Shown here: piece by piece, positions 20,574 to 62,690 of the stretch
How positions within the stretch are numbered: position 1 is the first letter of the stretch
Layout: each line of letters opens with the position of its first letter
Assembly: GCA_963710575.1 (NCBI GenBank)
Contig: CAVQAL010000006.1
Span: forward strand, 317,784 to 381,783
Direction of reading: 5' to 3'
DNA: 64,000 bases
Source of the DNA: an uncultured delta proteobacterium
GTDB taxonomy: Bacteria; Desulfobacterota; Syntrophia; Syntrophales; Smithellaceae
Translations under genes and position numbers: made by a program
Notes under the pieces: generated by a model
The model's input: the letters and a program-made list of their open reading frames with translations, nothing else
Told to the model about the DNA's origin: nothing
The model's database searches: none

Positions 20574-20576
20574 CCG

Positions 20577-28213: not shown

Positions 28214-28286
28214 AGTAAATTAATGAGAGCAAAATTTTAGTGATAAATTTTAATTTGTCGAATAATGGAATAATTTATTCTGCCTG

Positions 28287-43978: not shown

Positions 43979-44301
43979 CGAAAGCGTACTGCCTTATAAA
44001 AATTTGCAAAACTAATTAATCTTAAGAGTAAATTATAAATTCCTTTCCTTGTCAAGCATAATTTGTTTGTTTTACTGAAGGATTCAACAGGAGAACCTCA
44101 ATTTATTTTCATTATCTACATTAGTTTTTGCAGCCATAGCAAGACAGGTACTTAGTATAAGCGTCCCATTTTATGTTTATTTTGTATTATAAAAATTATC
44201 TCTGATTTGCAGTATTTTAAAACATTGGCAAAATATTAAGGTGCTTGACAAAAAGCCAATCTCAACCCTATAAAGCTACAAAAAATAAGGGAAAGAAAAT
44301 A

Positions 44302-45705
44302 ATGGAAAAAATCAGAACCCGCTTTGCACCTTCACCAACAGGCTATTTACACATTGGTGGGGCGCGAACAGCTCTTTTTAACTGGCTTTATACCCGCCAC
44401 TACGGCGGTGAATTTGTTCTGAGGATTGAAGATACCGACCAAGAACGTTCGACCGATGAATCCACCAAGGCCATCCTCGATGCCATGACTTGGATGGGCC
44501 TGGATTGGGATGAAGGGCCCCATTTTCAAGCTCAGCGTGTTGATCTTCACCGGGAAATGGTGCAAAAACTGATTAATGAAGGAAAAGCCTACTATTGTAC
44601 TTGCACATCTGAAGAACTCGAAACCAAAAGAAAAGCAGCTTTGGCCGCCGGAAAAAAGCCCAAATATGACGGCACCTGCCGCGACAAAAAATTAAAGAAA
44701 TCTCCCGGTAGCGTTGTCCGCTTTCGTGGCGCACAAACCGGAATTACGATTGTGGAAGACCTCATCAAGGGTAATATAAGTTTCAATAATGATGAGTTGG
44801 ACGATTTGATTATAGAACGCGGCGATGGGTATCCCACGTACAACTTTGCCGTTGTCATTGACGATGCACTCATGAACATCACGCACGTCATTCGCGGCGA
44901 CGACCATGTCAACAATACACCGCGCCAGATTTTGATGTATGAGGCGCTCGGTTTTGATGTGCCCAAATTCGCCCACGTCCCAATGATTCTGGGATCAGAC
45001 AAGGCGCGCCTGAGCAAGCGTCACGGAGCGACTTCTGTTATGGCCTACAAAGAGATGGGTTACCTGCCGGAAGCGCTCGTCAATTATCTGGTGCGCCTCG
45101 GGTGGTCGCATGGAGACCAGGAGATTTTTTCGCCAAAGGAACTAATTGAGCACTTCGATTTATCCGCCGTCGGCAAATCGCCCGCTGTTTTAAATCCCGA
45201 AAAATTAATCTGGCTCAACGCGCACTATATAAAGGAAGCAAATCCTGAGCGATTGATGGAAGAGATGAACCTCTTTTGGCCTGTCGGCGCCAATACGGTC
45301 GATGCCGCTTTCACGCAAAAAGTGATCGCCGATTTGCAGCCGCGCGTCAAAACACTGATCGAACTGGCAAACGCGGCGAGTTTCTACTTTGCCGATGAGA
45401 TTCAGTATGAAGAACCAGCCGCCAAGAAGTTTCTAGTGCCTGATGTTTCCGCTCATTTAAAAGCGATGGCCGCAGCAATTCCATTGGTGCAAAACTTCAG
45501 CAGAGAAGGTCTTGAAGAATTCCTCAAGGCTTTTGTGCAGGAACGAGACATCAAGTTCAAAGTTCTAGCCCAGCCGCTGCGGGTAGCGTTGACGGGAAAA
45601 ACCGTCAGTCCCGGCATTGATGAAGTCATGGCAACTCTGGGCAAGGAACGGGTCATACAAAGGATCAATGCCGCACTTGCCTATATTGAAATTCAGAATA
45701 AATAG
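44302..45705 (+). CDS. gltX: Glutamate-tRNA ligase
   Basis: RFAPSPTG, HIGG, RLSKR; TTGACA(44245)-18 nt-TATAAA promoter upstream. Confidence 0.97.
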   Translation: MEKIRTRFAPSPTGYLHIGGARTALFNWLYTRHYGGEFVLRIEDTDQERSTDESTKAILDAMTWMGLDWDEGPHFQAQRVDLHREMVQKLINEGKAYYCTCTSEELETKRKAALAAGKKPKYDGTCRDKKLKKSPGSVVRFRGAQTGITIVEDLIKGNISFNNDELDDLIIERGDGYPTYNFAVVIDDALMNITHVIRGDDHVNNTPRQILMYEALGFDVPKFAHVPMILGSDKARLSKRHGATSVMAYKEMGYLPEALVNYLVRLGWSHGDQEIFSPKELIEHFDLSAVGKSPAVLNPEKLIWLNAHYIKEANPERLMEEMNLFWPVGANTVDAAFTQKVIADLQPRVKTLIELANAASFYFADEIQYEEPAAKKFLVPDVSAHLKAMAAAIPLVQNFSREGLEEFLKAFVQERDIKFKVLAQPLRVALTGKTVSPGIDEVMATLGKERVIQRINAALAYIEIQNK

Positions 45706-45840: not shown

Positions 45841-46028
45841 CGACCTGCAAGCCTCAGTCGCAGATGACCCGGCGTGACCCTTAGGTTATTCAGGTTATGC
45901 ACTTTGTTACTGAAACTTGGATCTCATTATTGCAGGGAGCTTCCGGCTCTCGCCAGAGGGGCCTTCACTTTCATCTTGACTTTTAAAGTCGAATTGAATA
46001 GATACTCACCCTCAACTTTCCACACTAT

Positions 46029-46102
46029 TGGGGGATCGTCTGGCGGCGGGACTCAGGGCTCTGAATCCTGCTACATAGGTTTGAATTCTGATTCCCCAGC
46101 CA
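46029..46102 (+). tRNA. tRNA-Gln(CTG), degenerate/possible pseudogene
   Basis: Acceptor TGGGGGA/TTCCCCA-G-CCA; anticodon loop CTCTGAA; T-loop TTTGAAT and weak T-stem. Confidence 0.7.
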
Positions 46103-46106
46103 ATAT

Positions 46107-46181
46107 GGTCCCATCGTCTAGTGGTTAGGACGCTGGCCTCTCACGCCGGAAACCGGGGTTCAACTCCCCGTGGGACTACCA
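46107..46181 (+). tRNA. tRNA-Glu(CTC)
   Basis: GGTCCCA/TGGGACT acceptor, CTGGC-CTCTCAC-GCCGG anticodon arm, TTCAACT T-loop, CCA end. Confidence 0.95.
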
Positions 46182-46187
46182 AAATAA

Positions 46188-46294
46188 TATCAAGTAGTTG
46201 CAAAAAATGTTGTAGCTCATTTTTTATTTCAATATTTAAATTCCCAACACTATTCCCAACAACAAAATCAATTCTAATCAATTCTAATCAATTC
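46188..46294 (+). promoter_or_regulatory. att-arm region: IHF site, direct repeats and 10-bp tandem repeat
   Basis: TATCAAGTAGTTG fits WATCAAN4TTR; TTCCCAACA x2 (46241, 46253); AATCAATTCT x3 (46266-46294). Confidence 0.6.
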
Positions 46295-46694
46295 CGTTAT
46301 CACCTCCCATAAAATCCGACTTACAGAATTCCATTATCCATTTATAAACTACATCGCGAGGATACTATAAACCATCAGTGAATTACCCCCGCCACAGGGC
46401 GCGGCATATTAATAAACTGGATGAGGGGAGATTACATCCCCATCCACTGAACGTGGTATTCTGATGTAAGTTTTAGTAAACGGTAAACCGTATATGAAAT
46501 ACGGAATACCGTTTTTTTATTGCGATTACATAAAATAATGTCTCATTTTCTATAACAATAAAACAACTTATATTTAATAATATTATAATAATTATAAACA
46601 TATACATAAGTTGTTGCATTGTTTTTTATTCAAATTTTAAAAATGGCATACATATTTCATCAGATAAAGACAAATAAGTTTGGAGGCAATTTTT

Positions 46695-46925
46695 ATGGAT
46701 GAGGTCATATACATTACAGAGCGCGATGTCAGCCGGATAACTTCGCGGGCACTGTCAACGTTGAGAAACGATCGCTTTAATGGACGAGGAATTCCATATT
46801 ACAAAATCGGCTCGTCCATCAGATATTCCCGCACTGACGTTATTAATTTCATGGAAACACGAAAAATCATGACCTCACCAGAACATGCAAACAAGCCTGA
46901 ACAGGAGGCAACTATGAAGAGATGA
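46695..46925 (+). CDS. Excisionase/AlpA-like helix-turn-helix protein
   Basis: YITERDVS....LSTLRNDR..G.GIPYYKIG.SIRY; SD GGAGG. Confidence 0.85.
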   Translation: MDEVIYITERDVSRITSRALSTLRNDRFNGRGIPYYKIGSSIRYSRTDVINFMETRKIMTSPEHANKPEQEATMKR

Positions 46926-46994
46926 TTTTGAAAATAACAAATGAGCTACTAGGCGAGTTCCGAAAGCCATCACATATCAAACAAGGAGGATTTT

Positions 46995-47210
46995 ATGAAT
47001 ATCATCAGTATAAATTTATCAAAAGCCGCGCGGAAAAAACTTAAGCGTTATGTAAAGATTCCAGTGGAGATTCGATCAGCAGCACGAAAAAGTTTTAAAT
47101 TAACGCATGAGGACATTATAAATCTTGGGTTACATATTCAGTCTGTAAACCAGCAACGTTTTTGGGAAAAACTTGAGCTGTACGGCAACTATAAAAATAA
47201 TAACTCGTAA
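46995..47210 (+). CDS. Small basic hypothetical protein
   Basis: 71 aa; SD AAGGAGG. Confidence 0.6.
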   Translation: MNIISINLSKAARKKLKRYVKIPVEIRSAARKSFKLTHEDIINLGLHIQSVNQQRFWEKLELYGNYKNNNS

Positions 47211-47375
47211 TAACACAAAAAAAGAAAGGACGGTGATGCTTTTGATTGCATAAAAAATGAAGATAAGCGGAATGCGTCGGAAATTAATTGGCCATTCTTG
47301 GAAACGAGAATGGTTTTTTTATTTCCGAAAACCTTTAACCCTTAACCTTAAATTCTAATAAGGAGGAATTTAAAG

Positions 47376-48430
47376 ATGTCTAAAAATTTAGATGTAACAA
47401 AAGAGGAAGTTAATGATCTTCCCAAACCAACGAGTGAAGCGGAGGCTACAACCAGCTCCGACCATAATTCAACCCTCAGAGCCCGAACCTGAATATTGGT
47501 CATATATGGGTATTGACAGTACGTCGTTCTAGGAAATCGACATAGTTAGCGTTGATGATGACGACCAGGAATCAGTGAATGAATGGATGGGCAAGATTAA
47601 AAAGCCCAAGAAAGGTCAGAATGTAAATATTGATCAGGTTATTCAGGAAGGCATCGAATTAGCTAAAGGTATTGCTTCCGAAGCCAATCAATTGATCAAT
47701 GCAGCTTTCAAGAATTTTGCTGATAGAGCAATATTCATCGGTTTAATCTGCCATCAAGTTAAAGGTATTAATTCGTGGCGACAAGAAACCTTGGGCTGTT
47801 TGGGCGGAAGAAAATTTTTCGTTCATTCTAAAGAGGAATCGTGAGAAATATATGCTCCTGGCAAGCAGGCCTGATTGCTGGCCTTTCAGCTTTCTTGGCG
47901 TCGACAGACTGGAAATGCTGTGTTCCGTCACCAAAGCAATGAAGGGTACTAATTGTATCAGTGATCTTCTCAAGAAGTACAAAATTCCTTTTAATGAAAA
48001 GATGGAAATTAACATGAGTGAGTTCAAAGCCATGATCGATGCGGCAATTAGTAATGAGCGGCTAGAAAACAATGGCTTAACGATTGATTACGACACAGTA
48101 AAAGGTGTCACTGATCTTGGTGTTGATATTGACAAATCAATGATCAAAAGGCTCAAAGACGTAAGGGATTGCGGCGGAAATCCGAAAACCCTGCTGGCCA
48201 GAAATCAATGTTGACCGGCGGTAAGGAGGACATGGATGTTACTCCCGAAAAGACGGCTGCAAGATTTCAATCATCTTTCTAATCGTCTTATCAAGACGTT
48301 GATTTCATAATGGATGACCAAGACCAACTCGTCAAAATCGACCGTGATACATTTCGCGATGTTAATGGCAAAGCTCACCAGCATTCAGGAATTGGGAATC
48401 TTGAATGAAGATGAGGAAAAGGCTGCGTAA
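47376..48430 (+). pseudogene. Multiply frameshifted gene, DUF3102-like central region
   Basis: SD AGGAGG plus ATG 47376; fragments 47575..47844 and 47852..48214 join across frames (AIFIGLIC...WAEENF...REKYMLLA). Confidence 0.5.
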
Positions 48431-48496
48431 CTTTTAACCTAGGCCTTCTGTTGTCTTAGATGGCGGGGGGCTTTTTTATTTAGAGGAGGAAATAAG

Positions 48497-49377
48497 ATGA
48501 AAGTTTGTCAGGCATCAATGAGCTCTAGGGTTTTAAAGCGTTACTGGGACCTTTTCAGGGAATTATTAAATATCTTGTTGTCATTCGCCTATGCGGGACC
48601 GGATTTCGAGGAGATTCTTATCAAGTGCCGTCACATGGTCGGCAGCATCATTCTGGATTCCGGTACATGGACCGCTTCAAAAGGTAATTCCAATATAACT
48701 CTGGCCGGCCTTATTTCATATATTCAGACAATAGGCCACCTTTTCGACGGGTTTTCAATTTTGACAGCGACTTTTCTGACCGGGGATTTGTCAACAATAT
48801 CGTCAACCAGATAATAATGGAAAGAGCCGGTCTGCATCCCATACCCGTGGTTCACAATTTGTTCGATTCGGAAATCGACTATTACATTGACTCGGGAAAG
48901 TACAATTGTCTGGCTCTTGGTTCCCGCCAAATCACGAACTTCGACGATCTGGCATATGCCGTTTATCGAATTAAAAAAGGTAATCCGAATATAAAAATCC
49001 ACTGGTTTGGCGGCAGCCGGTATGAATGGCTCTGCAATCTGCCCATAGCAAGTTGCGATACTTCTTCCTGGGGAACGGTAGGTAAATTCGGTTTTATCAG
49101 ATACTGGAACCCGCACTTATCAGGAATAAACAAGGGGCATTCAATTTATACCAGCGGAGTGGTCAAGGATATTGAGGAAGGCAAATACGAGTATGTAACC
49201 TATCCATGGCGGAACGATCTCGATGCATATCTTCAGGAAACCTTTGGTCTGACGTTCCACGACCTATGCGGATATGACGCTGCCTATAATATGCAGCTTG
49301 TCAATACCCGATTCTATGCGGAATTGGAACGGCGGATTAATGAGGAACGAGTCCGGCGCGGGATAGCGTTGGAATAA
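48497..49377 (+). CDS. TGT/DpdA-like TIM-barrel transglycosylase, 1-nt deletion near 48750
   Basis: ILDSGTWT, FNFD, PIPVVH, LALG, KIHWFG, SCDTSSW motifs in the expected order. Confidence 0.7.
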
Positions 49378-49380
49378 TAG

Positions 49381-49396
49381 GCGCAGGAGTCTGCGT
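49381..49396. promoter_or_regulatory. Palindromic operator-like site GCGCAG-N4-CTGCGT (also 49859, 51317, 51447 degenerate, 58051, 62411)
   Basis: Six intergenic copies, all inside the island. Confidence 0.65.
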
Positions 49397-49416
49397 ATTT
49401 TAGAAAGGAGAAAAAA

Positions 49417-49785
49417 ATGGGAACTTTTTTTGGAGTAACCGCTAGCAGCGGTGCAAAGATTAAAAAAGATAAGGAAGAAGAAGTCCAGAAGTTGCTGGAC
49501 AAATATGACTTTTCACGTGGCCTCGAGTGCCAGATTAATAACGGCAGTATAGAAATATGGGGATATGAATGGCCATATTTATATCTAAAACCTAAAAATG
49601 ATGAAGATGATCCGGATGATGATGTATTTGTAAAATTCTTGGAAGAGCTGGCTCCGTTACTGGCTGAAACTCTGGTGATACAGGCTGTTGGAAATGAAAA
49701 GTGTGTCTTTCCGCTCTCGGCCGCAGAAATAATAGTTACACAAACAGGTGTGGAAGGCAGAAACGTATTTAAGTGGTCATGGTGA
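49417..49785 (+). CDS. Acidic hypothetical protein
   Basis: 122 aa; SD GAAAGGAG. Confidence 0.7.
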   Translation: MGTFFGVTASSGAKIKKDKEEEVQKLLDKYDFSRGLECQINNGSIEIWGYEWPYLYLKPKNDEDDPDDDVFVKFLEELAPLLAETLVIQAVGNEKCVFPLSAAEIIVTQTGVEGRNVFKWSW

Positions 49786-49807
49786 TCAATAATTGATTGA
49801 TGTGTGA

Positions 49808-50000
49808 AAGGGACTCATTTTCTTAACTGGGGTGGGTCCCTTCCCTGTCATCAATATGGCGCAGAAGTCTGCGTATTTTGGAAAGGAGAGTGATGCAAGA
49901 TGGGCTGATTCAAAGAGTAATATAAAAATAAATTTAAATAACCCGGAAATAAAAGGGGCCTCTCAATAAAGAGATGGTCCCTTTTTATTTTTCAAAACTA
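49808..50000 (+). repeat. Island intergenic module copy (hairpin A, operator, SD plus minigene, hairpin B)
   Basis: Hairpin B AAAAGGGRCCTCTCAATAAAGAGATGGTCCCTTTT is repeated at 53564. Confidence 0.75.
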
Positions 50001-50027
50001 AAAATAATATCAAAGGAGAATTTGTAT

Positions 50028-51227
50028 ATGTCAAAACGAAATAAAAATAAGAAGGATTTACGTGACGAAAATTCTAAATCGTCAAAGGAAATAATTTTGC
50101 CGAGAGGCTTCTTAAAAAAAATGGGCATTGTGCCTTTTGCCGATGAGGAGCATAATTTAAATAAACAATTTATTGCAAAAGAAATACGGAAGCATTTCGG
50201 GCAACCTGAATTCGAAAAGTTTTGTAGCATGAAGGATGTCAACGATATTTATGACTATTTATGCTCTCAAATATTCCTAACCAAATTAAGTTACAGATGC
50301 GAATATTATAGAATTTGTAGGATAGCTGATGCACTGAGAGATCTTCCAATGTCACCCGACTTGAAAATTTTGGACGTAGGTGGTGGGACAGGATTGCTGG
50401 CCTTTTATATGGCTCAAATATGGGGAAATAGTGAAATTACAATTGCAGACAAGTATTCGAATGTAGGTTCACAGTGGGCAAAGGAAATCGGTGCTGATAG
50501 GGTTAGCTTTATTGACTCGATCCTTCCTGATCTCCCCAATATTTCCGATCAGCATTACGACGTTGTTGTCTTATCGAGAGTTCTCAATGTTTTAGACAAA
50601 TTGAATCTCCCCAGTTTTATCAGTACAAGCTGGGATAATTATTCCAAAAGTAAAGAGGGTATTCAGCGGAATGAGGAATTGAAGAAAATAGCTGCGAGCT
50701 TGAAACGAGTAATGAAGCAAGATGGATCACTCATAATTGTTGAATCATGGTCTGGTGACCGTGTACTCATGGTAGGAAAAGCTTTTGAACAAAGTGGCCT
50801 GTTTATCAATTTGGACGGTTTCAGTTCGGATCATGTAAGCAACGAATATTCTATTATCACTTTTTCAAATGCATTTAATACCAAATTGCTTCGCGATATC
50901 CCTTTGGCTCTATCCACAAAAGTCGATGAGAAATATAATGACAATACAGTTCATCAGATGGCCGCCGAATCTCTCAGAAATCTTTTTGAAAGTAAACCGC
51001 CTATAATGGAATTTGAATTCATTGAGAATAGTAAGGTGATGAGATGTGAGCTATTTGAAAAAAATGGACTGGCATTGTTTTCTGTTAGGACATCTAAAGG
51101 TCAAAAAATGGCCACGCTTTCTTCGGCTGTTGACATCCCCAAGATAATAGAGATGTACAAAAAAAGTGAAAAAGAAATGGTTTCTAACAGCAAGTATAAG
51201 ATCACCCAAAGTGTGACAGTAAGATAA
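50028..51227 (+). CDS. Class I SAM-dependent methyltransferase domain protein
   Basis: ILDVGGGTG motif I, YDVVVLSRVL; SD AAAGGAG. Confidence 0.8.
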   Translation: MSKRNKNKKDLRDENSKSSKEIILPRGFLKKMGIVPFADEEHNLNKQFIAKEIRKHFGQPEFEKFCSMKDVNDIYDYLCSQIFLTKLSYRCEYYRICRIADALRDLPMSPDLKILDVGGGTGLLAFYMAQIWGNSEITIADKYSNVGSQWAKEIGADRVSFIDSILPDLPNISDQHYDVVVLSRVLNVLDKLNLPSFISTSWDNYSKSKEGIQRNEELKKIAASLKRVMKQDGSLIIVESWSGDRVLMVGKAFEQSGLFINLDGFSSDHVSNEYSIITFSNAFNTKLLRDIPLALSTKVDEKYNDNTVHQMAAESLRNLFESKPPIMEFEFIENSKVMRCELFEKNGLALFSVRTSKGQKMATLSSAVDIPKIIEMYKKSEKEMVSNSKYKITQSVTVR

Positions 51228-51260
51228 ACATCAAAACTATATGTAAAATTAATTTTTCAA

Positions 51261-51573
51261 AAAAAGGGGCTCTCACGGGAATTTGAGCCTTTTTTTATTT
51301 TTAATAGTGATAAAAAGCGCAGGTTCCTGCGTTTCTTGAGAAAGGGGGTATTAAGAATATGAGATGATAATGATATAAAGAGTAATTCAAAATTATAATT
51401 GCGGAAGTGGGGTCAGGTTATTTACTGGCCCCTTATCATCAATATGGCACAGGGGTCTACGTTTTAAAAGGAAGGTGATGAAATATGAGCTGATTTAATT
51501 ATAATTTAATAAAAATACAATTTGAGCAAGTTTGGGTAAAAGGGGCTTTTTCCGGATGGAGAGTCCCTTTTTT
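51261..51573 (+). repeat. Two tandem island intergenic modules
   Basis: Hairpin A, operator 51317, minigene 51359; hairpin, TCATCAATATGG, degenerate operator, minigene 51478/51485, hairpin B'. Confidence 0.7.
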
Positions 51574-51665
51574 ATTTCCCGTTAACAACTAACAAAACAG
51601 CGACTCATACCCGGTGGCCGCTTTAAAATTGAGAACAAGATATTCTCATAAATGGAGGTTTAACA

Positions 51666-53418
51666 ATGTCAGATTTTAGTTCCAAAGATAAAAAAATATT
51701 CGATGATATGATAAAATGTGTCAAAGATACCGGCTTGAACATTTTGAACGAGCGGATGGAATCAATCAATACGACAACCCAAGTGAACATCCTTTGTATA
51801 AGTATGGCTATCACAGGGAAAGATGCCCTGAAAGACAAACTCACGTCCGTAGCAATATGCGTATCCAATCATCCCGCTATCTTGTTTGACATGATCAAGT
51901 CCAAACCGGAAGATATAATCACGCTCAAGCAATTGCTGGAAGATCACACAGCAAAGGTCTTTTTCGATGCCAAGAAGGCGCTGAATTTCTTTCATGCAGC
52001 TGGCTTCGAAATTAACGGTCCAATTTATGATGTCATGTTGATGGACAAAATCCTGCGAGCCGGTGATAGAGAGAAAAATTTGACTATTAATAGCATTATC
52101 ACACAATACCTCGGAACATCCATGACCATAGACTCTGTCTTAATTCCCGTCGATAAAGAAGTAGAGATACTTCTGAAACTATATGAAGTCATCCTTTGCC
52201 AGCTAATGGAAAATGATTTGCTGGACACAGCAACCTTGGAATTTGAATGTATCCGGGCTGTTGCTGGAATGGAGAGGAACGGGATCAGGGTCGATGGGGA
52301 AAAATTAAAGGATATGCTGCAGAAGTTTACTGAACAGCAAGATTTTTTTGCAAAAATACCGCGTCAGTATTTGGGAGATGTCAATCTAAACAGTCATAAA
52401 AAAGTAAAGGAAGAGCTCATCAAAAAAGGGGTCAAGGTAAAAGATACAAGGCGGGGAACACTTCAGCCCCACATCTTTCCATATCTTTACTTATGGGATT
52501 ATCAAATTTATAAAAAGTTTAAATACTACAGGTCGCTCGCCGCAGCCCTTCTGGACAAGAATCGACCCCAATACAGGCAGACTATATCCCAAGTATTCAC
52601 AAATAGGTGCACCTAATGGTCGTCTTTCCTGTTCTGACCCGAACCTTCATGCAATACCAAGAACAGAGGAATTTAGATCATGTTTTATTCCGGATGACGG
52701 TTATAAGCTTATTATTGCCGATTACTCTCAAATTGAATTGAGAATTGTAGCGGAAATCAGTCATGATAAACTCATGGTTGATGCATATCAAAAGGGAGAC
52801 GATCTTCATAAACTGACTGCGTCGCTGATAACGTATAAGACAATGGATTATGTTAACAAGGATGAATGTTTAACTGCGAAAGCTGTAAACTATGGGCTCA
52901 TTTACAATATGGGAGAAAAAAAATTAATTAAATTTTTTCTTGATAACTACGGTCTTACTATTCTTCCGCAACGGGCAGAGAAGTATAGAAGTGTATTCTT
53001 TTCAGCTTATCAAGGAATTGCCCAGTGGCATGAGGATTTCGATTCTCAATCATATGGTGAAACGAGAACATTGGGCAATCGCAGAAGGGTCTGGGACAGC
53101 TATTACATGAATACCACAGACCTTCTGAAAACAACGATACAGGGAACAACTGCGGATATACTGAAGAGAGCATTATGCATTCTTCACGAGAGGATTAAAA
53201 ATACTGGGATAAAAATCATTGGTTGTATCCACAGAGAGATCATTATGGAAGCACCTATTATGAAAACAGACGCAGCAATTCAACTCATGCGCAAGTCCAT
53301 GACTGACGCAGGCCAGCATTACCTGAAAGAGGTTCCGGTTGTGGTCAATATTTCTGCTGTTGATAATTGGTATGAGAAACAGGGATCACATATGGGTGGT
53401 AGTAATAACCTTCCGTAA
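51666..53418 (+). pseudogene. Family A DNA polymerase-like protein (exo plus pol), +1 frameshift near 52560, catalytic residues substituted
   Basis: MERNGI, GRLSCSDPNL, ADYSQIELR, AKAVNYGLIY, IQGTTADILK; motif C reads IHRE. Confidence 0.8.
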
Positions 53419-53443
53419 TCTGTTAACCTCTTAACTGTCTGAA

Positions 53444-53612
53444 AAAGAGGCTCATTTCTCTCACGGGATTTGAGCCTCTTTGTTTATTTAGAAAGGAGTG
53501 TGATGAACTATGGGTTGATTTGATAATTGTACGGTAATTCAATAATTAAAAGAATCAAAAAATAAAAGGGACCTCTCAATAAAGAGATGGTCCCTTTTCT
53601 ATTTTCAAAACA
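53444..53612 (+). repeat. Island intergenic module copy
   Basis: Hairpin A GAGGCTCA...TGAGCCTC, SD plus minigene 53503/53510, hairpin B. Confidence 0.75.
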
Positions 53613-53637
53613 AAAAAATATTAGGAGGGAAAATATC

Positions 53638-54741
53638 ATGAAAAATGAAGATAAAGAAAATCAAATTATTAAAAGCGATGCAAGTAAAAGCTCTGAATCT
53701 AACAAAAAGCTTTCTGTTACAGAATATCTCGGGCCTGATTGGAAAGAGTATTTCAAAAAACCTAAGGTACTTATGAGAATTATGAAAGCTGTTACCTGGA
53801 CTAGAAATTTTAAAAACTCTCATCGATTCAATGCAAGGCGGGAAGCAATAACCAAAAAAATGTTTAAAAACAAAAAGACGCATGATTTTGTTTCTGTAGA
53901 CGCAGTAACTGATTTGGGAACCAATCGACAAAGACTGATTGTTATACTTCGGGAAATAAAGACTGGATTGAATGAAAAATGGGTTCTAGACATTACATTA
54001 ACTGCCCCCAAAGCGGTGGATCTTCTTGATGCCTTGTACTGTTCGGAAGAAGACTGTGAAGGAATAGTAATCTTGTATTGTGATGATATTCCAAATATAC
54101 ATGAACCTGAATTTAATATCGAAAAAGAAGCACTATCAGATCTCCTTTCGGAGATGTCCCACATCACAAACAATATATATTCGGTTCTTGTGGATATTGA
54201 TTGCGAATGCGACGAGGTAAACAATATGAACCTCCGCTTCGGTTTAAGATCACCTCAGGGATTAATGTCATATAAAGAACGAAGAAAAATCAATCCTCGC
54301 ATAGAATTAGAGAGCAGTATATGGGACAATTATTACGCGGCATTTATGGCGGAGACAAAAATAAAATGTTATGAAAGTCAATTGATTAGTGATCAGTATC
54401 ATGGATCAATCCCTTTATTAGCAGTGCCAATATGGACGGAGAAAGGACTCTTCATGAGAATAGAAATAATGGAAGTCCAAATAGAAGAGGTCACTCGACT
54501 TGTAATCAAGCATAAAGAAGAACTCGTAAGAGGTTACTCTGGATACAAAATGGAAGTAAAATGGAAATCAGGAATACCTTATCACATTGACATTCAGCTT
54601 CATAATACACCTGTTGCAGATTTTGTTGAAGGCTCAACAAAGGCAAAAATTAATTATGCCTCGGAAATACGCGAACAGCAGTTAAAACTGATGCATCACA
54701 TAGAGGAGATTTTTCAAGACTACACTCCAGAGTCAAAATAG
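53638..54741 (+). CDS. Hypothetical protein
   Basis: 367 aa; SD AGGAGG; no family recognised. Confidence 0.7.
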   Translation: MKNEDKENQIIKSDASKSSESNKKLSVTEYLGPDWKEYFKKPKVLMRIMKAVTWTRNFKNSHRFNARREAITKKMFKNKKTHDFVSVDAVTDLGTNRQRLIVILREIKTGLNEKWVLDITLTAPKAVDLLDALYCSEEDCEGIVILYCDDIPNIHEPEFNIEKEALSDLLSEMSHITNNIYSVLVDIDCECDEVNNMNLRFGLRSPQGLMSYKERRKINPRIELESSIWDNYYAAFMAETKIKCYESQLISDQYHGSIPLLAVPIWTEKGLFMRIEIMEVQIEEVTRLVIKHKEELVRGYSGYKMEVKWKSGIPYHIDIQLHNTPVADFVEGSTKAKINYASEIREQQLKLMHHIEEIFQDYTPESK

Positions 54742-54776
54742 AATTCGGATGTGTTTATAACGGCAGATATATGAAT

Positions 54777-54820
54777 AAAAGAGGCTCATTTTTCTCACCG
54801 GGATTTGAGCCTCTTTTTTT
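54777..54820 (+). terminator. Hairpin A terminator copy
   Basis: AAAAGAGGCTCA...TGAGCCTCTTTTTTT. Confidence 0.8.
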
Positions 54821-54934
54821 ATTCAGTTCAACCGCAAGAAACAATCCCGCACTGATCTGTCCTTCAACCCAGAACAATAATAATGAAGGATAATTTTCCT
54901 TTAAATTCCATATTCCTTAGAAGGAGAGAAAAAG

Positions 54935-55114
54935 ATGAAGACAGCATGTTTTACCAAAGCGTTAACCGTAGCCTTTTCCGAAGAGATTTATTTCAAGATC
55001 AAAGAAATCACCGACGCGAAAAATATTTCCATGGGTGAGTGGGTCAGATTGGCATCAGAAAGGGCATTAGACAACAACGAATATAACAAGTGTATTGAAG
55101 GAGGAAACAAATAA
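54935..55114 (+). CDS. Ribbon-helix-helix (CopG-like) protein, not in the ORF track
   Basis: MKTACFTKALTVAFSEEIYFKIKEITDAKNISMGEWVRLA...; SD AAGGAG; TAATG overlap with the primase start. Confidence 0.7.
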   Translation: MKTACFTKALTVAFSEEIYFKIKEITDAKNISMGEWVRLASERALDNNEYNKCIEGGNK

Positions 55115-57456
55115 TGACATATTATCAATCTAATTTTTCAGAAGAAGAACCAATAAACGTGGCAGCTGCATTTATTCATACTATGTTTAATAGCTCATTA
55201 AATCAAGGGGCGGGTGAAATTGAAATCAGAACTTTTAAACCTATGGCAAAAGGTTATTTTTTCAACTCTTCACATGCCGCGGCCAAATTAGCTATCAATC
55301 TTTGCGCTCAGGGGATTGATGTTTATTTCGGCGTGAATCCCAGAACCGGCCAACAAGGGAAAAAAGAAAATGTTCATTATCTATCTTCCTTTCACGCAGA
55401 GATTGATTACGGCAGTCTTGGCCATAAAAAAGAAACGGAATTTAAAAATTTTAAAGAGGCATTTGATGTAGTTGATGGTTTTTATCTCCACCCATCCATT
55501 ATTATTCATTCCGGTGGTGGCTTCCATTGCTACTGGGTTTTAAAAACTCCATTATGTGTATCAGATTACGGAATAGTCGCATTGGAAAATGTTAACAAAG
55601 CACTGACAAAGGCTCTCAACGGCGATTCTGGCACTCATGATTTATCGCGAGTATTACGTGTTCCAGGAACTTTTAATTTTAAACAACCGGAGAATCCCAG
55701 ACCAGTTGATATCTTTTTGCTGAGTGACCTGACTTACTCACTCGATGATTTCAGTGAATTGGTGGCAACCTTGAAAGAAGAACCAGTGAAAACTAAGGCC
55801 AAAGCTGAGAGACAGCCTGCTTCATTAACTGATGTTAAAGAACCTGCTCAAAACCCAATAAATAATACCATTGATATTGACGCTCTGCCTGTTTCAGAAA
55901 AGATAAAGAATCTTATCAAACACGGTAATGATGGTTCTTATTCAACACGTAGCGAAGCGGATATGGCGGTAATACTATTATTGGTTAGTAAAGGCCTTGG
56001 TGAAAATGAAATCAGGCAGATATTCCAGTCGTATCCCATTGGCGTTAAGTATCGGGAACATTCGTCGCCAGATGATTATTTGAATCATAACATCCAGAAG
56101 GCAAAAGAGATGTCCAATCTGACGGAAGAGGAAATGCAAAACCCGCTGTTTATATCAGGCTCCATTTCCAAGACAGATAAAGGCTATCATTTAAAGAGCC
56201 TGAATTTTGAAGAATACATGGTGAAAAAATATATGATAAAGATTCTCGACCAGGAGGTTGCTTTCTTCAAATACAACGGGAAATGCTATGAACAGTGCAC
56301 GGAAAAAACCCTGAACAATCTTTGTCAAAACGAATTGGCTGCATACAGGCATCTTTTCAGCAAGTCGAATTTGAATGAACTGATTCATTATGCAATCGGA
56401 GATGCTTTGGTCGATAGTGATAATGCAAGAATCAACCAGGTCAAATATCTTACCCTGCAAAACGGTTTATATGATCTTGATGCCGGAGAACTGATTGAAC
56501 ATTCCCGCGATATCTTTACGACTAATCTGCTGCCTTATAATTATGATCCAGCCGCAACATGTCCCCGATTCATTCGGTTTCTCAAGGAAATATTCGAGGA
56601 TAATCAGGAAAAGATAGATTTCGTCCAGGAGGCTGTCGGCTATGCATTTCATAAATCGTTGCCTACTCCAGCAGCATTCTTTCTTGTCGGTGGCGGCAGT
56701 AATGGAAAATCGGTTTTCATCAACACCATTGCCAATCTCATCGGCAGGGAAAACACATCCAATGTCAGCTTCAATGCTTTGTCCAATGAATATTATGTCC
56801 TGGAGCTCTTCCAGAAAATGATCAATATCTCCGGCGAGACTCCTCAAGGGAAATGCATCAATACTGACGCGGTAAAGGCTGCAACTGCCGGAGACTGGAT
56901 TACGGGAAGAGGATTGTATAAGGAGCCCATGAAATTCAGGCCATTTGCCAAGCACTTTCTGGCCATGAATAAACCGCCTGTGATCTCTGACCAATCTCAT
57001 GGGATGTGGAGAAGGATATGGGTATTGAAGTTCAACAGACGCTTTACTGAAGAGGACATGGACCGCCAACTGGAAGAGAAGCTAGTCAGTGAACTCTCCG
57101 GTATTTTCAACTGGGCATTGGAAGGTTACAATAAGCTGAAAGATAAGAAATTTGCCCTAAGCGAATCCGCAACCATGAAGATGTCGAAGCAAGAATATCG
57201 GGATGAAATTAATAGTGACAGCATCAGTTCTTTTGAAAAGAAATATTTTGTGAAATCAAAAGATCCTAAAGATGTTATTGTCTTCAACGAAACGTATGAA
57301 TTTTATAAAGCATACTGCCAACGTGAAGAAAAGACAGACTTACAGGATAAAAACTATTTCAAGAAAATGCTTATTGATATGGGCTATAAAATAAAAAGTT
57401 CCACCAGACATGGCAATAAGGTTTGTATCTTTAATGTAAAGATAAATTTAAAGTAA
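55114..57456 (+). CDS. Phage/plasmid primase-helicase (RepB'-type AEP, helical bundle, D5_N, SF3 helicase; P4 family)
   Basis: DVYFGVNPR, HSGGGFHCYW, RVLRVPGT, RSEAD, LQNG, CPRF, GGGSNGKS, GMWRR. Confidence 0.9.
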   Translation: MTYYQSNFSEEEPINVAAAFIHTMFNSSLNQGAGEIEIRTFKPMAKGYFFNSSHAAAKLAINLCAQGIDVYFGVNPRTGQQGKKENVHYLSSFHAEIDYGSLGHKKETEFKNFKEAFDVVDGFYLHPSIIIHSGGGFHCYWVLKTPLCVSDYGIVALENVNKALTKALNGDSGTHDLSRVLRVPGTFNFKQPENPRPVDIFLLSDLTYSLDDFSELVATLKEEPVKTKAKAERQPASLTDVKEPAQNPINNTIDIDALPVSEKIKNLIKHGNDGSYSTRSEADMAVILLLVSKGLGENEIRQIFQSYPIGVKYREHSSPDDYLNHNIQKAKEMSNLTEEEMQNPLFISGSISKTDKGYHLKSLNFEEYMVKKYMIKILDQEVAFFKYNGKCYEQCTEKTLNNLCQNELAAYRHLFSKSNLNELIHYAIGDALVDSDNARINQVKYLTLQNGLYDLDAGELIEHSRDIFTTNLLPYNYDPAATCPRFIRFLKEIFEDNQEKIDFVQEAVGYAFHKSLPTPAAFFLVGGGSNGKSVFINTIANLIGRENTSNVSFNALSNEYYVLELFQKMINISGETPQGKCINTDAVKAATAGDWITGRGLYKEPMKFRPFAKHFLAMNKPPVISDQSHGMWRRIWVLKFNRRFTEEDMDRQLEEKLVSELSGIFNWALEGYNKLKDKKFALSESATMKMSKQEYRDEINSDSISSFEKKYFVKSKDPKDVIVFNETYEFYKAYCQREEKTDLQDKNYFKKMLIDMGYKIKSSTRHGNKVCIFNVKINLK

Positions 57457-57618
57457 CAATTGTTTATTGGGGATGGGGAATTGATTTCTTTCCCCTCCCC
57501 AAAAGAAGAAGAAATCACTATCAATATTTTATATTGAATAACATATGATTAAGAAAACATTAACAAGTTCGATGCAAGTAAAAATGAAAAACTAAACAGA
57601 TTAAATGGTTCCAGTAAA

Positions 57619-57735
57619 GATTAACAAGATTAACTAGAATATACAACTATTCCCAAAAATAATGAAATAATAATAAATATAATATTTATAAATATACTCT
57701 TATAAAGTTACAGAATTTAGTTAATCTGGTTAATC
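57619..57735. promoter_or_regulatory. Putative replication origin
   Basis: GATTAACAAGATTAACTA / TAGTTAATCTGGTTAATC inverted repeat (17/18) flanking about 80 bp of AT-rich DNA after the primase gene. Confidence 0.55.
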
Positions 57736-58675
57736 CATCCCGAAGATATTCAGTTCATTGGGGAAATAAATTTCTAAATGTAAATTTGTTAATCAAAAGT
57801 TATTCAAGAGTTATTCTATAAATAGAAGTCTTCTCTTTCTTTTGGGAGAGGGAGGAAATAGCCTCTAATAATATATTAAGAAAGGGTATGGTCTGCTGCT
57901 ATTGCTGGTTATATCCATACAGCATCCTCTAATAACTGCCTAAGTCTTCTTAAACAAGAGAACTTCTGTTGCTTATAATAAGGGGAGGGACAATAAAAAA
58001 TGACTCTCGGAACGGTTTGGGGCGTTGATGTTTATGCTGAGTTATAAAAAACGCAGACTCCTGCGTATTTCTGTTCTGGATATATCCCAGCAACACCATC
58101 CCATAACTTCTCTGGCTAACGTGGGAGATAGATCTGTTCTGCCTTATATAAGGAGATGGAGGCAGAAATGACCTTGCCAATTTAACGATAACTGGTTGAA
58201 GCATGCAGGTTTTAAAATGATATTCCTTAGTAGAAGTGTTTATTTGTTGCTTCCTGAACTCCACACATTGCTGTCTCGAAAAAATATTCAACATTACAAA
58301 TGTTAATAAACACCATTCATAATGGCAATAATATAATAAATTTTTTACTTATTGACAAACCGGTTAAGAATCATGTAGGAAATCGTAGTCTTTTACTGTG
58401 GCTTTGATTGTTTTTGATTAGTTTTCCTGTAATTAAATTAAAAAAGGGAATTCGATTCATGTCGTCATCAATTCTATTTAAATTAAATCTCCCCCCATTC
58501 ATTCTTTGTGAATTAAATTTCTCTAAATGTATTAATGCACTTTTTAGATTATGTTCCAAGATTAAGTTCTAATTTCCACCGTACAAATTTATTTTTTGAG
58601 TTACCAGAAACGAATTTCAAGAAGCAATAAAACGAAGTTTCTGTGTGGACTAATAAACGTGAAAAGGAGAAATGG

Positions 58676-61430: not shown

Positions 61431-62339
61431 ATGCAGACAGATAATTTAAACCAGATGATTCAACCAGACTTAGAACAATACACACAATTCATTGACATTG
61501 ATCATTCATTACCCGATGAGACAATTAATCATGTTGATGGTAATTCAAAAACCCAGGTTATTCCCCAGGTCAGCACCACAGAAATACTTGCCGGCAATTA
61601 TGAACCTGAATCCGAGGAAGCACTTATAGCGTATGCAACAAATATACATACCCATGTGCAGACTTTTTCAATCAGCGGCTATTGGGAAATAGGCAGATCC
61701 ATCAATGCATTTTACAAAGGGAAATATGGGACAAATGAACTGGAAAGAATTGCCCAGGCAACAGGCATAGGTCGGGATACTCTGGTCAAATCCTGCAGGT
61801 TTGCAAGACAATATTCAAAAGAACACGTTGAAATACTTTTGAAGGGAAATTTTGTCATGTCATGGAGTCATATTGCAAGAAACCTGACGATAGAACCTCA
61901 AAAGGTTATAGAGGCGTATCAACAATCTCCTGGCTGCGAACAATTTAATTATGACATAATTAAATTGAAAAACCCATCAGAGGCAAGAGGCAAGAACAAG
62001 ATGAATTCTGCAAAGCCGGCAGCCGATGTTGACACTTCCTTATCATTTCAAGAACCAAGTGATCTCGCTGATGCTGCAAAAATGGTGTTGAATAATGAAA
62101 GGTCTGAGAAGGAAATAAAAGATCTGCGGGAAGAAAATGATACACTCCGCAAAGAACTGGATCATACAAAGTATCAGTTAAATGAAATGAACAGCCTCTT
62201 TCACGATGCAGCCATCGACATCACCAAAAAAAGTGATTTGATTGATAGGCTAAGAGCCACGCTGAATCAAGTTCATGATATGGTTCAAAATGGTTGCCAT
62301 CACGAAAACATATTGGAGCAAGTGGTATGGCGGATATGA
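61431..62339 (+). CDS. DUF1016 N-terminal-like domain plus coiled coil
   Basis: YWEIGRSI...YG...LERIA...FARQY...MSWSH; no nuclease domain recognised. Confidence 0.6.
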   Translation: MQTDNLNQMIQPDLEQYTQFIDIDHSLPDETINHVDGNSKTQVIPQVSTTEILAGNYEPESEEALIAYATNIHTHVQTFSISGYWEIGRSINAFYKGKYGTNELERIAQATGIGRDTLVKSCRFARQYSKEHVEILLKGNFVMSWSHIARNLTIEPQKVIEAYQQSPGCEQFNYDIIKLKNPSEARGKNKMNSAKPAADVDTSLSFQEPSDLADAAKMVLNNERSEKEIKDLREENDTLRKELDHTKYQLNEMNSLFHDAAIDITKKSDLIDRLRATLNQVHDMVQNGCHHENILEQVVWRI

Positions 62340-62690
62340 TAGGGCATGCTTGGAAAATATCACATTAAACCTTCCTGCTTCTTCTTAATCAATATGCTGG
62401 ATTTAAAAAAGCGCAGACTCCTGCGTATTTTTCAATTGAAAAGTTTCCGGGACTATCTGTTTTAGGTTTTTATCAGGTTAGAATCATTCCAATATTGAGG
62501 CCGATTTTCGCTTTGCTGAGTTTATACCATGAGTGATAAACTGGCTTGAAAAGGTTATGGAATGAGTGGGTTATTTAGTTCACTTATCAACGAGTTTCTA
62601 TTTGTGATTAAGGTGAAGATTACCATTTGATCTTATCAATGCAGAGCCACTCTCTAAATTCAACGACTGTGACACTTAGGCGTTAGACCT

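What the first reader, a model, noticed from the sequence alone, without database searches (positions are those of the whole stretch)
47224..54820. Island genes are separated by a repeated multi-part non-coding module (hairpin A, palindrome, SD plus minigene, hairpin B)
Seen: unrelated cargo genes are preceded by versions of one ~150-200 bp module at 49808-50000, 51261-51400, 51409-51573 and 53444-53612, with partial copies at 47224-47325, 49380-49411 and 54777. Hairpin B plus tail is near-identical at 49947-49998 and 53560-53611. Hairpin A covaries (GAGGCTCA/TGAGCCTC versus GGGACTCA/TGGGTCCC), and TCATCAATATGG recurs at 49848 and 51436. Sense-strand terminators sit just upstream of each cargo gene. 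Inference: this is either a portable expression/recombination cassette that shuffles cargo (conceptually like the PeSL promoter-stem-loop cassettes of T4-type phages) or an array of small regulatory RNAs needing antitermination. I know of no description of this module.
Basis: partly seen in the sequence, partly recalled or inferred. Interest (0 to 1): 0.85.

Follow-up and report, generated by a model that had tools for sequence, protein, structure and literature searches.

The report
Repeated mini-ORF cassettes between island genes
A mobile island in a syntrophic bacterium separates its accessory genes with copies of one conserved non-coding unit (small hairpin, strong ribosome-binding site, two-codon mini-gene, terminator), and related islands have exchanged genes at these units.

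Summary
Downstream of tRNA-Gln/Glu lies a low-GC replicative island (TGT/DpdA-like gene, PolA, D5-type primase). Its accessory genes are separated by a ~130-nt unit: short palindromic hairpin (CGCAG-N4-CTGCG plus U-run), an SD complementary to the host 16S tail, a two-codon mini-ORF (ATG-NNN-TGA/TAA), an AU-rich spacer and a strong intrinsic terminator.

A covariance model finds 4 full units in the window and 31 in related islands, and none outside such islands in the host genome. 29 of 31 units keep the two-codon ORF in the same column, with 13 different second codons. The terminator covaries (7 of 12 pairs). There is no Rfam match.

Three sister islands in the same genome and mosaic metagenome elements differ in cargo at unit edges. 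One example is a unit-gene-unit block 90% identical between elements whose flanks do not match.

Best reading: a conserved junction/leader cassette that insulates each cargo gene and supplies the homology for cassette shuffling, functionally like T4 PeSLs but without a conserved promoter and with a translated minigene. The RNA-level role (ribosome loading or stabilisation versus conditional attenuation) is inferred, not shown. No RNA data were available.

The parts
47224..47325 (+). Diverged unit upstream of the ParB-like gene: SD GAAAGGACGG, 5-codon ORF 47236-47253, terminator hairpin 47290-47315 plus U-run
   Evidence: Homologous copies in C7 and L032. Not scored by model R1 at E <= 1.
49381..49412 (+). 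Palindromic hairpin (49381-49396), U-run and SD, used directly by orf122 (ATG at 49417). Left direct repeat of the orf122 cassette.
   Evidence: 30 of 32 identical to 49858-49889. R1 partial hit, 33 bits.
49417..49785 (+). Cargo orf122. No Pfam, PHROG or PADLOC family; homologues follow units in L086 and L079.
49810..49859 (+). Hairpin A' (GGGACTCA...TGGGTCCC, no U-run) followed by TCATCAATATGG (49848-49859)
   Evidence: The same arrangement follows orf122 in L086.
49856..49991 (+). Unit M1: palindrome 49860-49873, SD 49880-49889, mini-ORF ATG GGC TGA 49900-49908, AU-rich spacer, terminator hairpin B about 49951-49992
   Evidence: R1 92 bits.
50028..51227 (+). Cargo: SAM-methyltransferase-domain protein (399 aa)
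   Evidence: Found in 0 of 115 other family genomes. 33-35% identical homologues follow units in L061 and L086.
51261..51299 (+). Hairpin A (short form), terminator after the methyltransferase gene
51314..51439 (+). Unit M2a: palindrome 51317-51332, SD, mini-ORF ATG AGA TGA 51359-51367, terminal hairpin 51409-51432 with its U-run replaced by TCATCAATATGG
   Evidence: R1 61 bits.
51444..51578 (+). Unit M2b: degenerate palindrome, SD, mini-ORF ATG AGC TGA 51485-51493, terminator 51537-51578
   Evidence: R1 116 bits.
51579..51665 (+). Long structured leader of the PolA gene, with a hairpin at 51631-51647 that changes compensatorily in C3 and L032
   Evidence: Alignment.
51666..53418 (+). PolA-type DNA polymerase, split into two frames (51666-52616 and 52738-53418). 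Its first ~32 residues match the N-terminus of the YbjN-domain cargo family.
53444..53605 (+). Hairpin A (53444-53482, left direct repeat) plus unit M3 without palindrome: SD 53490-53499, mini-ORF ATG GGT TGA 53510-53518, hairpin B about 53564-53606
   Evidence: R1 47 bits.
53638..54741 (+). Cargo orf367. No Pfam, PHROG or PADLOC family; absent from the C7 sister island.
54777..54826 (+). Hairpin A, right direct repeat of the orf367 cassette (92% identical to 53443-53491). Terminator in front of the conserved RHH-primase control region.
58051..58066 (.). Further copy of the palindrome with A-run and T-run flanks, inside a ~350-nt repeat
62411..62426 (.). Further copy of the palindrome after the gene at 61431-62339

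Best explanation
The module is the standard gene junction, or leader cassette, of a family of tRNA-linked replicative islands. The family backbone is HTH, ParB-like gene, TGT/DpdA-like gene, a variable region, then RHH and a D5-type primase.

One unit runs 5' to 3' as follows:
1. A 6-bp palindromic hairpin with a U-run, which ends the upstream gene.
2. An SD complementary to 9-13 nt of the 16S tail.
3. A two-codon mini-ORF.
4. A 40-60 nt AU-rich stretch.
5. A strong intrinsic terminator.
6. 25-200 nt later, the SD and start codon of an accessory gene.

Shown: the unit is conserved, island-specific and always in gene orientation. Its hairpins covary. Islands differ by gain, loss or replacement of accessory genes at unit edges.

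Inferred, DNA level: the units recur in direct orientation within and between co-resident islands, so homologous recombination between them inserts, deletes and swaps unit-flanked genes. This is how PeSLs work in T4-type phages.

Inferred, RNA level: each unit insulates its cargo gene. Most upstream transcription stops at the terminators, so cargo is expressed only by read-through or processive antitermination. On read-through RNA the strong SD and mini-ORF load ribosomes onto the AU-rich leader and so help the downstream message, as shown for the two-codon minigenes of LEE1 and axe-txe and the strong-RBS minigene of LEE4.
For: Conservation and specificity
- Model R1 gives 28 hits at E < 1e-4 in 76 sources, all in the orientation of the TGT-like gene, and 31 hits once three more loci are added.
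- In the host genome the only hits are 4 in this island and 1 in the C3 sister island.
- 5 of 116 family genomes have a hit, among them all four with a close primase homologue.
- Unit nucleotide identity is median 0.63, against 0.56 for the 3' 300 nt of the adjacent gene and a shuffled baseline of 0.48. The unit exceeds the gene in 71 of 105 pairs.

Structure
- 92% of cells are paired; 10 of 18 pairs show double changes; 0 of 500 shuffles reach this; slid controls are lower. In the terminator helix 7 of 12 pairs covary.

Mini-ORF
- ATG-NNN-T[GA]A sits in the same column in 29 of 31 units, with 13 different second codons, 22 TGA and 7 TAA.
- One exception keeps a 4-codon ORF ending at the same stop through an upstream in-frame ATG.
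- The host 16S tail is ...GGATCACCTCCTTTCT.

Shuffling
- The C7 sister island is 84-95% identical in shared genes. It lacks 53491-54826 (minigene, hairpin B, orf367, hairpin A) and has a different gene in place of 49401-51759.
- Direct repeats flank orf122 (30 of 32) and orf367 (92%).
- L037 and L085 share a unit-gene-unit block at 89.7%, running from the palindrome to just past the second terminator, with no match in the flanks. L085's upstream gene is instead 93.5% identical to L073, up to the palindrome.
- L086 and L081 homology ends right after the mini-ORF.
- 117 of 492 HSP ends lie in units +/-15 nt, which make up 2.6% of the sequence.

No room for a promoter
- Only about 20-30 nt separate hairpin B from the cargo SD in M1, M3 and L031.

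Precedents
- PMC2839356 (abstract and section 14), PMC4122927 (abstract), PMC3262186 (abstract), PMC8708949 (abstract and introduction).
Against: - No expression data: no RNA run was listed. Termination, read-through and translation of the mini-ORF are all predictions.
- The enrichment of HSP ends in units is partly trivial. The first unit follows a conserved gene's stop codon, where similarity between diverged pairs ends anyway. The 31 units and the locus pairs are not independent. Only the high-identity mosaics (L037/L085/L073, L031/L117, C6/C7) are clean recombination evidence.
- At least one breakpoint lies inside a coding 5' end rather than in a unit: the PolA N-terminus matches the YbjN-family N-terminus.
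- No conserved sigma-70 promoter is present, so the unit is not a self-contained expression cassette.
- No antiterminator protein or recruitment site was identified.
- The island copies in this genome carry several frame breaks, so the units here may no longer be in use.
- In LEE1 and axe-txe the minigene-to-gene distance matters. Here it varies from about 100 to 300 nt and a terminator lies in between.
Confidence: 0.55

Rival explanations
1. Ordinary terminators plus relics. The hairpins are plain intrinsic terminators. The 'SD plus minigene' is the decayed start of a former gene, copied along with its neighbours, and has no function of its own.
For: - At 49381-49419 the same palindrome and SD drive a real gene, orf122. 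In L040 and L050 the palindrome is followed directly by an SD and a gene.
- In elements without cargo, the palindrome is followed by one terminator and then the primase control region (L043, L062, L072, L077).
- The island copies in this genome are full of frame breaks.
Against: - 29 of 31 units keep exactly ATG, one sense codon and a stop in the same column while the sense codon varies among 13 codons. These units come from elements whose TGT-like proteins are only 36-72% identical to the query.
- The unit is at least as conserved as the adjacent coding DNA.
- The SD keeps 9-13 nt of complementarity to the 16S tail.
Confidence: 0.2
2. Conditional attenuator. Ribosome occupancy of the SD and mini-ORF, or a protein bound to the UGA/UAA-rich spacer, decides whether the downstream terminator forms. 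Cargo genes are then switched on by the state of translation or by island induction.
For: - The layout (SD, very short ORF, spacer, terminator, then SD and gene) is that of ribosome-dependent attenuators.
- Terminator 5' arms of the commonest type carry CUCC, complementary to the unit's SD. Duplex energies are -6 to -13 kcal/mol, with z < -1 in 13 of 31 units.
Against: - With the 3' arm of the terminator removed, RNAalifold finds no conserved alternative helix.
- SD-to-arm complementarity is weak overall (mean z -0.9) and absent from the second hairpin type.
- The mini-ORF stop lies about 40-60 nt upstream of the terminator, too far for a terminating ribosome to touch it.
- The variable second codon argues against sensing one aminoacyl-tRNA.
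Confidence: 0.12
3. Independent small RNAs. Each unit is a ~130-nt transcript running from hairpin to terminator. It acts as an sRNA, or as a lambda-bar-like minigene RNA that ties up ribosomes or tRNA.
For: - The unit begins with a hairpin and ends with a terminator.
- 12 of 31 units carry a weak sigma-70-like site, against 4.5 +/- 2.0 in shuffles.
- The form, a strong SD plus a two-codon ORF, resembles the lambda bar minigenes (recalled, not from a call).
Against: - Promoter-like sites sit at inconsistent positions, and most score only 9 of 12.
- Upstream of the unit there is a stop codon or another terminator within 3-40 nt.
- The second codons are not rare in the host; AGA is 8.8 per 1000.
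- No Rfam family matches.
Confidence: 0.06
4. Site-specific recombination sites. The palindrome, with a conserved stem and variable 4-nt centre, or the hairpins, are recognised by a recombinase, as attC sites are in integrons or pdif sites in Acinetobacter plasmids.
For: - The palindrome stem sequence is far more conserved than its loop.
- Two clean mosaic junctions fall within 5 nt of its 5' edge.
- Cassettes are flanked by direct repeats.
Against: - No tyrosine recombinase is found on contig C6 (0 of the genome's 8 PF00589 matches).
- Other junctions lie at +31, +52 and +141 in the unit, or in coding sequence.
- A 4-nt centre is shorter than the 6-8 bp usual for tyrosine recombinase cores (established knowledge, recalled).
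- The palindrome always has an A-run before it and a U-run after it, like a bidirectional terminator.
- Compensatory variants keep the pairing: GTGCAG/CTGCAT and TCGCGG/CCGCGA.
Confidence: 0.05

Closest known systems
PeSL (promoter-early stem-loop) cassettes of T4-type phages (PMC2839356 abstract and section 14; PMC4122927 abstract)
   Same: - Short repeated intergenic regulatory cassettes containing a terminator stem-loop and ending at the SD and start of the next gene.
- Concentrated in a variable region of non-essential genes.
- Indels and replacements between relatives are bounded by the cassettes.
   Different: - No conserved sigma-70 consensus promoter.
- Contains a strong SD and a conserved two-codon mini-ORF, and two to three terminators per junction.
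- Sits in chromosomal tRNA-linked islands with a D5-type primase, not in a lytic myovirus.
- Mini-circles were not examined.
Two-codon leader minigenes: LEE1 (ler) of EHEC (PMC3262186 abstract) and axe-txe (PMC8708949 abstract and introduction). Also the strong-RBS six-codon minigene of LEE4, which shields an AU-rich leader from RNase E (as described in the introduction of PMC8708949).
   Same: An SD-preceded AUG, one sense codon and a stop in the 5' leader of a gene. The leader here is AU-rich. In those systems translation of the minigene acts in cis on the downstream gene.
   Different: - Here the minigene is part of a repeated, mobile, ~130-nt unit.
- It is followed by an intrinsic terminator and lies about 100-300 nt from the cargo start.
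- It is conserved across many elements.
- Its translation and any effect are untested.
Lambda bar minigenes (AUG AUA UAA/UGA with a strong SD; recalled from memory, no call)
   Same: A two-codon ORF with a strong SD on a mobile element. M2a even contains ATGATATAA next to its ATG AGA TGA.
   Different: - bar toxicity depends on a rare tRNA and defective Pth. Here the second codon varies among 13 codons that are not rare in the host.
- There is no evidence of toxicity.
Morons of lambdoid prophages (a gene with its own promoter and terminator inserted between conserved genes; recalled)
   Same: Accessory genes inserted between backbone genes, each with its own terminator.
   Different: No own promoter is detectable. 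The flanking sequences are one repeated conserved unit rather than unrelated signals.
Integron attC cassettes and pdif modules (recalled)
   Same: An array of same-orientation promoterless genes separated by imperfect hairpin-forming repeats.
   Different: - No integrase lies next to the array.
- The hairpins are terminators with U-runs.
- Junction positions vary.

Membership tests
PeSL cassettes (T4-type phages) | Sigma-70 consensus early promoter inside every cassette | tested here: inconclusive
   12 of 31 units have a weak promoter-like site (9-10 of 12 matches), against 4.5 +/- 2.0 in shuffles, but at inconsistent positions. In the island as a whole there are 49 sites against 52.4 +/- 7.1 in shuffles.
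PeSL cassettes (T4-type phages) | Stable stem-loop acting as terminator or attenuator | tested here: met
   Predicted only. Hairpins fold at -14 to -23 kcal/mol and are followed by U-runs. 92% of cells are paired and 7 of 12 terminator pairs covary. Terminator-like sites in the island number 32 against 13.6 +/- 4.1 in shuffles.
PeSL cassettes (T4-type phages) | Indels and replacements between close relatives bounded by the cassettes | tested here: met
   C6 versus C7 islands. Mosaics L037/L085/L073, L086/L081 and L031/L117.
PeSL cassettes (T4-type phages) | Cassette-bounded mini-circles | not testable with these tools
   Needs outward PCR or deep long reads.
Two-codon leader minigene (LEE1 / axe-txe type) | SD-preceded AUG, one sense codon and a stop in the leader of a gene | tested here: met
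   29 of 31 units. At least 22 of 28 units have an ORF of >= 60 codons starting within 24-202 nt downstream.
Two-codon leader minigene (LEE1 / axe-txe type) | Minigene is translated and acts in cis on the downstream gene | not testable with these tools
   No RNA or ribosome data were available.
Leader-peptide (ribosome-mediated) transcription attenuator | Conserved alternative antiterminator pairing that competes with the terminator and overlaps or abuts the leader ORF | tested here: not met
   No consensus helix appears when the terminator 3' arm is removed. SD-to-5'-arm duplexes give a mean z of only -0.9.
Integron gene cassette array | Adjacent tyrosine recombinase (IntI) | tested here: not met
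   None of the genome's 8 PF00589 matches lies on contig C6. The contig ends 1.4 kb past the window, so a gene beyond that end cannot be excluded.
Any Rfam family | Score at or above the gathering threshold | tested here: not met
   Only the two tRNAs pass. In E-value mode the single module hit is a chance-level 24 bits against a 53-bit threshold.

The most novel reading that the evidence does not exclude
The unit is a self-contained gene-capture and switch device of a new kind: an integron without an integrase. Directly repeated units let any unit-flanked gene loop out and re-enter by homologous recombination between co-resident islands. On the RNA, the super-strong SD and two-codon mini-ORF act as a sensor of free ribosomes, or as a loading site for an island antiterminator, that decides read-through of the terminator. 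The captured genes would then stay silent until the island is induced or host translation is disturbed.
Probability: 0.15. Interest if true: 0.8.

Novelty: new variant of a known kind. Interest (0 to 1): 0.58.

Why it matters
The result shows that regulatory-cassette-mediated gene shuffling, so far described for T4-type phages, also operates in chromosomal replicative islands of anaerobic syntrophs (Smithellaceae) and in many uncultured relatives.

It also defines a compact, widely conserved non-coding unit with a two-codon mini-ORF that is absent from Rfam. The unit is a natural, repeated test case for what two-codon minigenes do, a question that currently rests on a handful of single-locus studies. 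In addition it is a practical marker for the variable, cargo-bearing region of this island family in metagenomes.

Tried and rejected
- Rfam. Gathering thresholds and E-value mode over 46000-58500 gave no family for any module part.
- RNA evidence. No RNA holder was listed.
- Conserved antiterminator. None was found. SD-to-terminator-arm complementarity was weak and not universal.
- Conserved promoter. None at a fixed position.
- bar-like rare-codon idea. The second codons are not rare in the host.
- Defence cargo. PADLOC gave only weak hits: mad2 at 1e-6 for the methyltransferase and PDC-S02 for 61431-62339. Pfam and PHROGs gave nothing for orf122 or orf367.
- Cargo in relatives. orf367 and the methyltransferase were not found with these queries in 115 other family genomes.
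- Recombinase next to the array. None on contig C6.
- Literature. Searches found the PeSL and minigene papers but no description of this unit. One search failed on term syntax and was not repeated. Supplements were not consulted; those of the PeSL papers hold reporter data that I saw only as described in the main text.
- Rows dropped. 11 metagenome loci whose post-TGT region one search showed to be identical to another locus (L038, L045-L049, L052, L054, L057, L060, L063) were left out. The L041/L042/L044 variant (20-nt insert, 3-5-codon ORF) is not detected by model R1 and is not among the 31 units. L082 in alignment A8 was given wrong coordinates and should be ignored.

Full report
**Setting.** The window is contig C6:317784-381783 of a 3.05-Mb, 19-contig genome. 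Related records are labelled Smithellaceae/Syntrophaceae. After gltX (44245-45705) and tRNA-Gln/tRNA-Glu (46029-46181), GC falls from about 0.44-0.47 to 0.37-0.38. From there a same-strand array of genes begins:
- an HTH/excisionase-like gene
- orf71
- a ParB-like region
- a TGT/DpdA-like gene (phrog_887)
- orf122
- a SAM methyltransferase
- a PolA-type polymerase
- orf367
- a small gene
- a 780-aa D5_N/DUF5906 primase

Several of these genes are split by frame breaks in this genome. The relatives have intact ORFs.

- Hairpin B plus tail is 48 of 52 identical between 49947 and 53560.
- The 12-mer TCATCAATATGG is exact at 49848 and 51436.
- The palindrome CGCAG-N4-CTGCG is exact at 49381, 49859, 51317 and 62411, has one mismatch at 58051, and is degenerate at 51447.
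- Hairpins A and B fold at -20 to -23 kcal/mol (z -4.8 to -6.9) and are followed by U-runs. The palindrome folds at -9 to -10 kcal/mol and has an A-run before it and a U-run after it.
- Terminator-like sites are over-represented in the island: 32 against 13.6 +/- 4.1 in shuffles.

**Anatomy of the unit.** I aligned the window copies with copies from related islands. This shows one ~130-nt unit made of five parts:
1. The palindrome and its U-run.
2. An SD of the form GAAAGGAGG(TGAT). The host 16S ends ...GGATCACCTCCTTTCT, so the SD pairs with 9-13 nt of it.
3. An ATG 7-12 nt after the SD, followed by one sense codon and TGA or TAA.
4. 40-60 nt of AU-rich sequence rich in stop triplets.
5. A GC-rich terminator hairpin with a U-run.

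25-200 nt further on come the SD and ATG of a gene. In the window the mini-ORFs are ATG GGC TGA (49900), ATG AGA TGA (51359), ATG AGC TGA (51485) and ATG GGT TGA (53510). The stretch 51261-51578 is a hairpin-A terminator followed by two tandem units. It is of the type also seen in L037, L085 and L086.

**Distribution.**
- Genome scan. A scan with the primase protein returned four loci, three with the upstream region.
- Metagenome scan. A scan with an alignment of the TGT-like protein returned 78 loci.
- Position. In most of these loci the palindrome follows the TGT-like gene's stop codon, and in many the full unit follows it.
- Model hits. Covariance model R1 (12 seeds) gives 28 hits at E < 1e-4 in 76 sources, all in gene orientation. 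I left out 11 loci that were identical to others in this region. Adding three more loci gives 31 hits.
- Multiple units. Several elements carry two units, each in front of a different gene: L037, L039, L073, L085 and L086.
- Host genome. R1 hits only this island (4) and the C3 sister island (1).
- Family genomes. 5 of 116 have a hit, among them all four with a close primase homologue.
- Rfam. No matching family.

The unit therefore belongs to this island family and is not a general host signal.

**Evidence of selection.**
- On the 31 units, 92% of cells pair and 10 of 18 pairs show changes on both sides. No shuffle out of 500 reaches any of the five measures, and slid controls are lower. The terminator helix has 7 covarying pairs of 12 and the palindrome 3 of 6. 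The alignment was fitted to the model, which favours the structure.
- The two-codon ORF sits in the same column in 29 of 31 units, with 13 different second codons, 22 TGA and 7 TAA. One of the two exceptions has lost the ATG but keeps a 4-codon ORF ending at the same stop through an upstream in-frame ATG. The other has ATG AAT TAA a few bases downstream.
- The unit is at least as conserved as the neighbouring coding DNA. Median identity is 0.63, against 0.56 for the gene and 0.48 for a shuffled baseline.
- The units are related to each other, so none of these counts is a set of independent observations.

**Cargo and shuffling.**
- Cargo families. The genes after units fall into a few families that recur in different combinations: a YbjN-domain family (14), PolA, an orf367-related family (4), methyltransferases only 33-35% identical to each other (3), and orf122.
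- Sister island C7:~10.5-20.6 kb. It is 84-95% identical to the window island in the shared genes. It has a different gene in place of 49401-51759. It lacks 53491-54826, which in the window is flanked by 92%-identical hairpin-A copies.
- Sister island C3. It has a single unit where the window has two.
- orf122. It is flanked by a 32-nt repeat of palindrome plus SD, 30 of 32 identical.
- Mosaic elements.
  - L037 and L085 share a unit-gene-unit block at 89.7%, from 1 nt before the first palindrome to 7-9 nt after the second terminator, with no match in the flanks.
  - L085's upstream gene is instead 93.5% identical to L073, up to the palindrome.
  - The two islands of genome G096 (L031 and L117) are 88.7% identical up to position +31 of the unit.
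  - L086 and L081 similarity ends right after the mini-ORF.
- Breakpoint enrichment. Overall 117 of 492 HSP ends fall in units +/-15 nt, which make up 2.6% of the sequence. This enrichment is partly trivial, because the first unit abuts a conserved gene end. The high-identity mosaics are the clean evidence.
- Breakpoints outside units. The first ~32 residues of PolA match the N-terminus of the YbjN family.

**Mechanism.** The DNA-level role as recombination substrate and cassette boundary is the best-supported part, and it works as PeSLs do in T4-type phages (PMC2839356 abstract and section 14; PMC4122927 abstract). Membership in PeSL is not claimed. PeSLs are defined by a sigma-70 consensus promoter, and here only 12 of 31 units have a weak promoter-like site, at varying positions.

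At the RNA level, a strong terminator lies 20-30 nt from the cargo SD with no room for a promoter. Cargo must therefore be expressed by read-through, through either leaky termination or processive antitermination. No antiterminator was identified.

The conserved strong SD and two-codon ORF in an AU-rich leader resemble the LEE1 and axe-txe two-codon minigenes, which act in cis on the next gene. They also resemble the LEE4 strong-RBS minigene, which protects an AU-rich leader from RNase E (PMC3262186 abstract; PMC8708949 abstract and introduction). I take ribosome loading and stabilisation of read-through RNA as the most likely role. This is an inference.

A ribosome-sensing attenuator is not supported. 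No conserved alternative helix was found, and SD-to-arm complementarity is weak and not universal. A bar-like tRNA trap has no support from codon rarity. Site-specific recombination lacks a recombinase on this contig, and the junction positions vary.

**Verdict.** The finding is real. The unit is conserved, island-specific and undescribed in the libraries I searched (Rfam; papers). It is best filed as a new variant of a known kind: mobile regulatory cassettes that mediate modular shuffling, here combined with a conserved two-codon minigene. Its RNA-level function remains to be tested.

Noticed in passing
G000 C7:~10500-20600 (L017) and C3:1-~13000 (L018); window 47377-53418: The genome holds three related copies of the island. 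In all three, several genes (ParB-like, TGT-like, PolA, primase in C7) are interrupted by frame breaks, while relatives L031-L033 have intact ORFs. This is either real decay or consensus errors caused by assembling near-identical copies.
   Followed up: partly
window 57470-57860: Origin-like region after the primase gene. GATTAAC occurs twice (57619, 57628) and GTTAATC three times (57720, 57729, 57788), in inverted orientation around an AT-rich core, bracketed by G-rich/C-rich hairpins at 57470-57502 and ~57828-57855. A similar layout follows the primase in L031, L032 and L033.
   Followed up: partly
window 57902-58256; G000 C7:56749-57104 and C7:10584-10890; L032:12808-12889: A ~350-nt repeat, 85-88% identical between copies, that contains an SD, a short ORF and then the same palindrome. 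It could be a small-protein gene or an RNA element shared by the islands.
   Followed up: no
G000, 18 sites on 12 contigs (e.g. C6:233904, C3:61225, C11:8017): An unrelated dispersed REP/MITE-like repeat with nested palindromes around the core CGCAGCTTGCTGCG. It shares the stem of the island palindrome but nothing else.
   Followed up: no
window 51666-51760; L018:1620-1720 (minus strand): The first ~32 codons of the PolA gene match the N-terminus of the YbjN-domain cargo family (59% identity to L032:7525). In C3 the same start leads into a different, broken gene. This looks like a recombination joint inside a coding 5' end.
   Followed up: partly
window 51579-51665: The long leader between unit M2b and PolA carries a hairpin just before the SD (GAGAA...TTCTC, 51631-51647). 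It changes compensatorily in C3 (GGGAA/TTCCC) and L032 (GAGTAAC/GTTACTC).
   Followed up: no
window 54827-54934: The stretch between hairpin A and the small RHH-like gene (motifs ...CAAGAAACAATCCC...GATCTGTC...CAGAACAA...) is conserved in many related elements (G096, L032, L043, L067, L072, L077). It is probably the promoter/operator of the replication module.
   Followed up: no
L034: A primase 81% identical to the window's lies on a 3.2-kb contig labelled as an uncultured Lentimicrobiaceae (Bacteroidota) MAG. This is either a binning error or island transfer across phyla.
   Followed up: no
window 8842-8957, 28109-28218, 35157-35285: A 53-116-nt repeat family, 91-95% identical, in the non-island part of the window. 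It is unrelated to the module.
   Followed up: no
L032:755-4359: In a same-genus genome the related island sits at the same gltX-tRNA site and is preceded by a second D5_N primase gene, which suggests tandem islands at this site.
   Followed up: no
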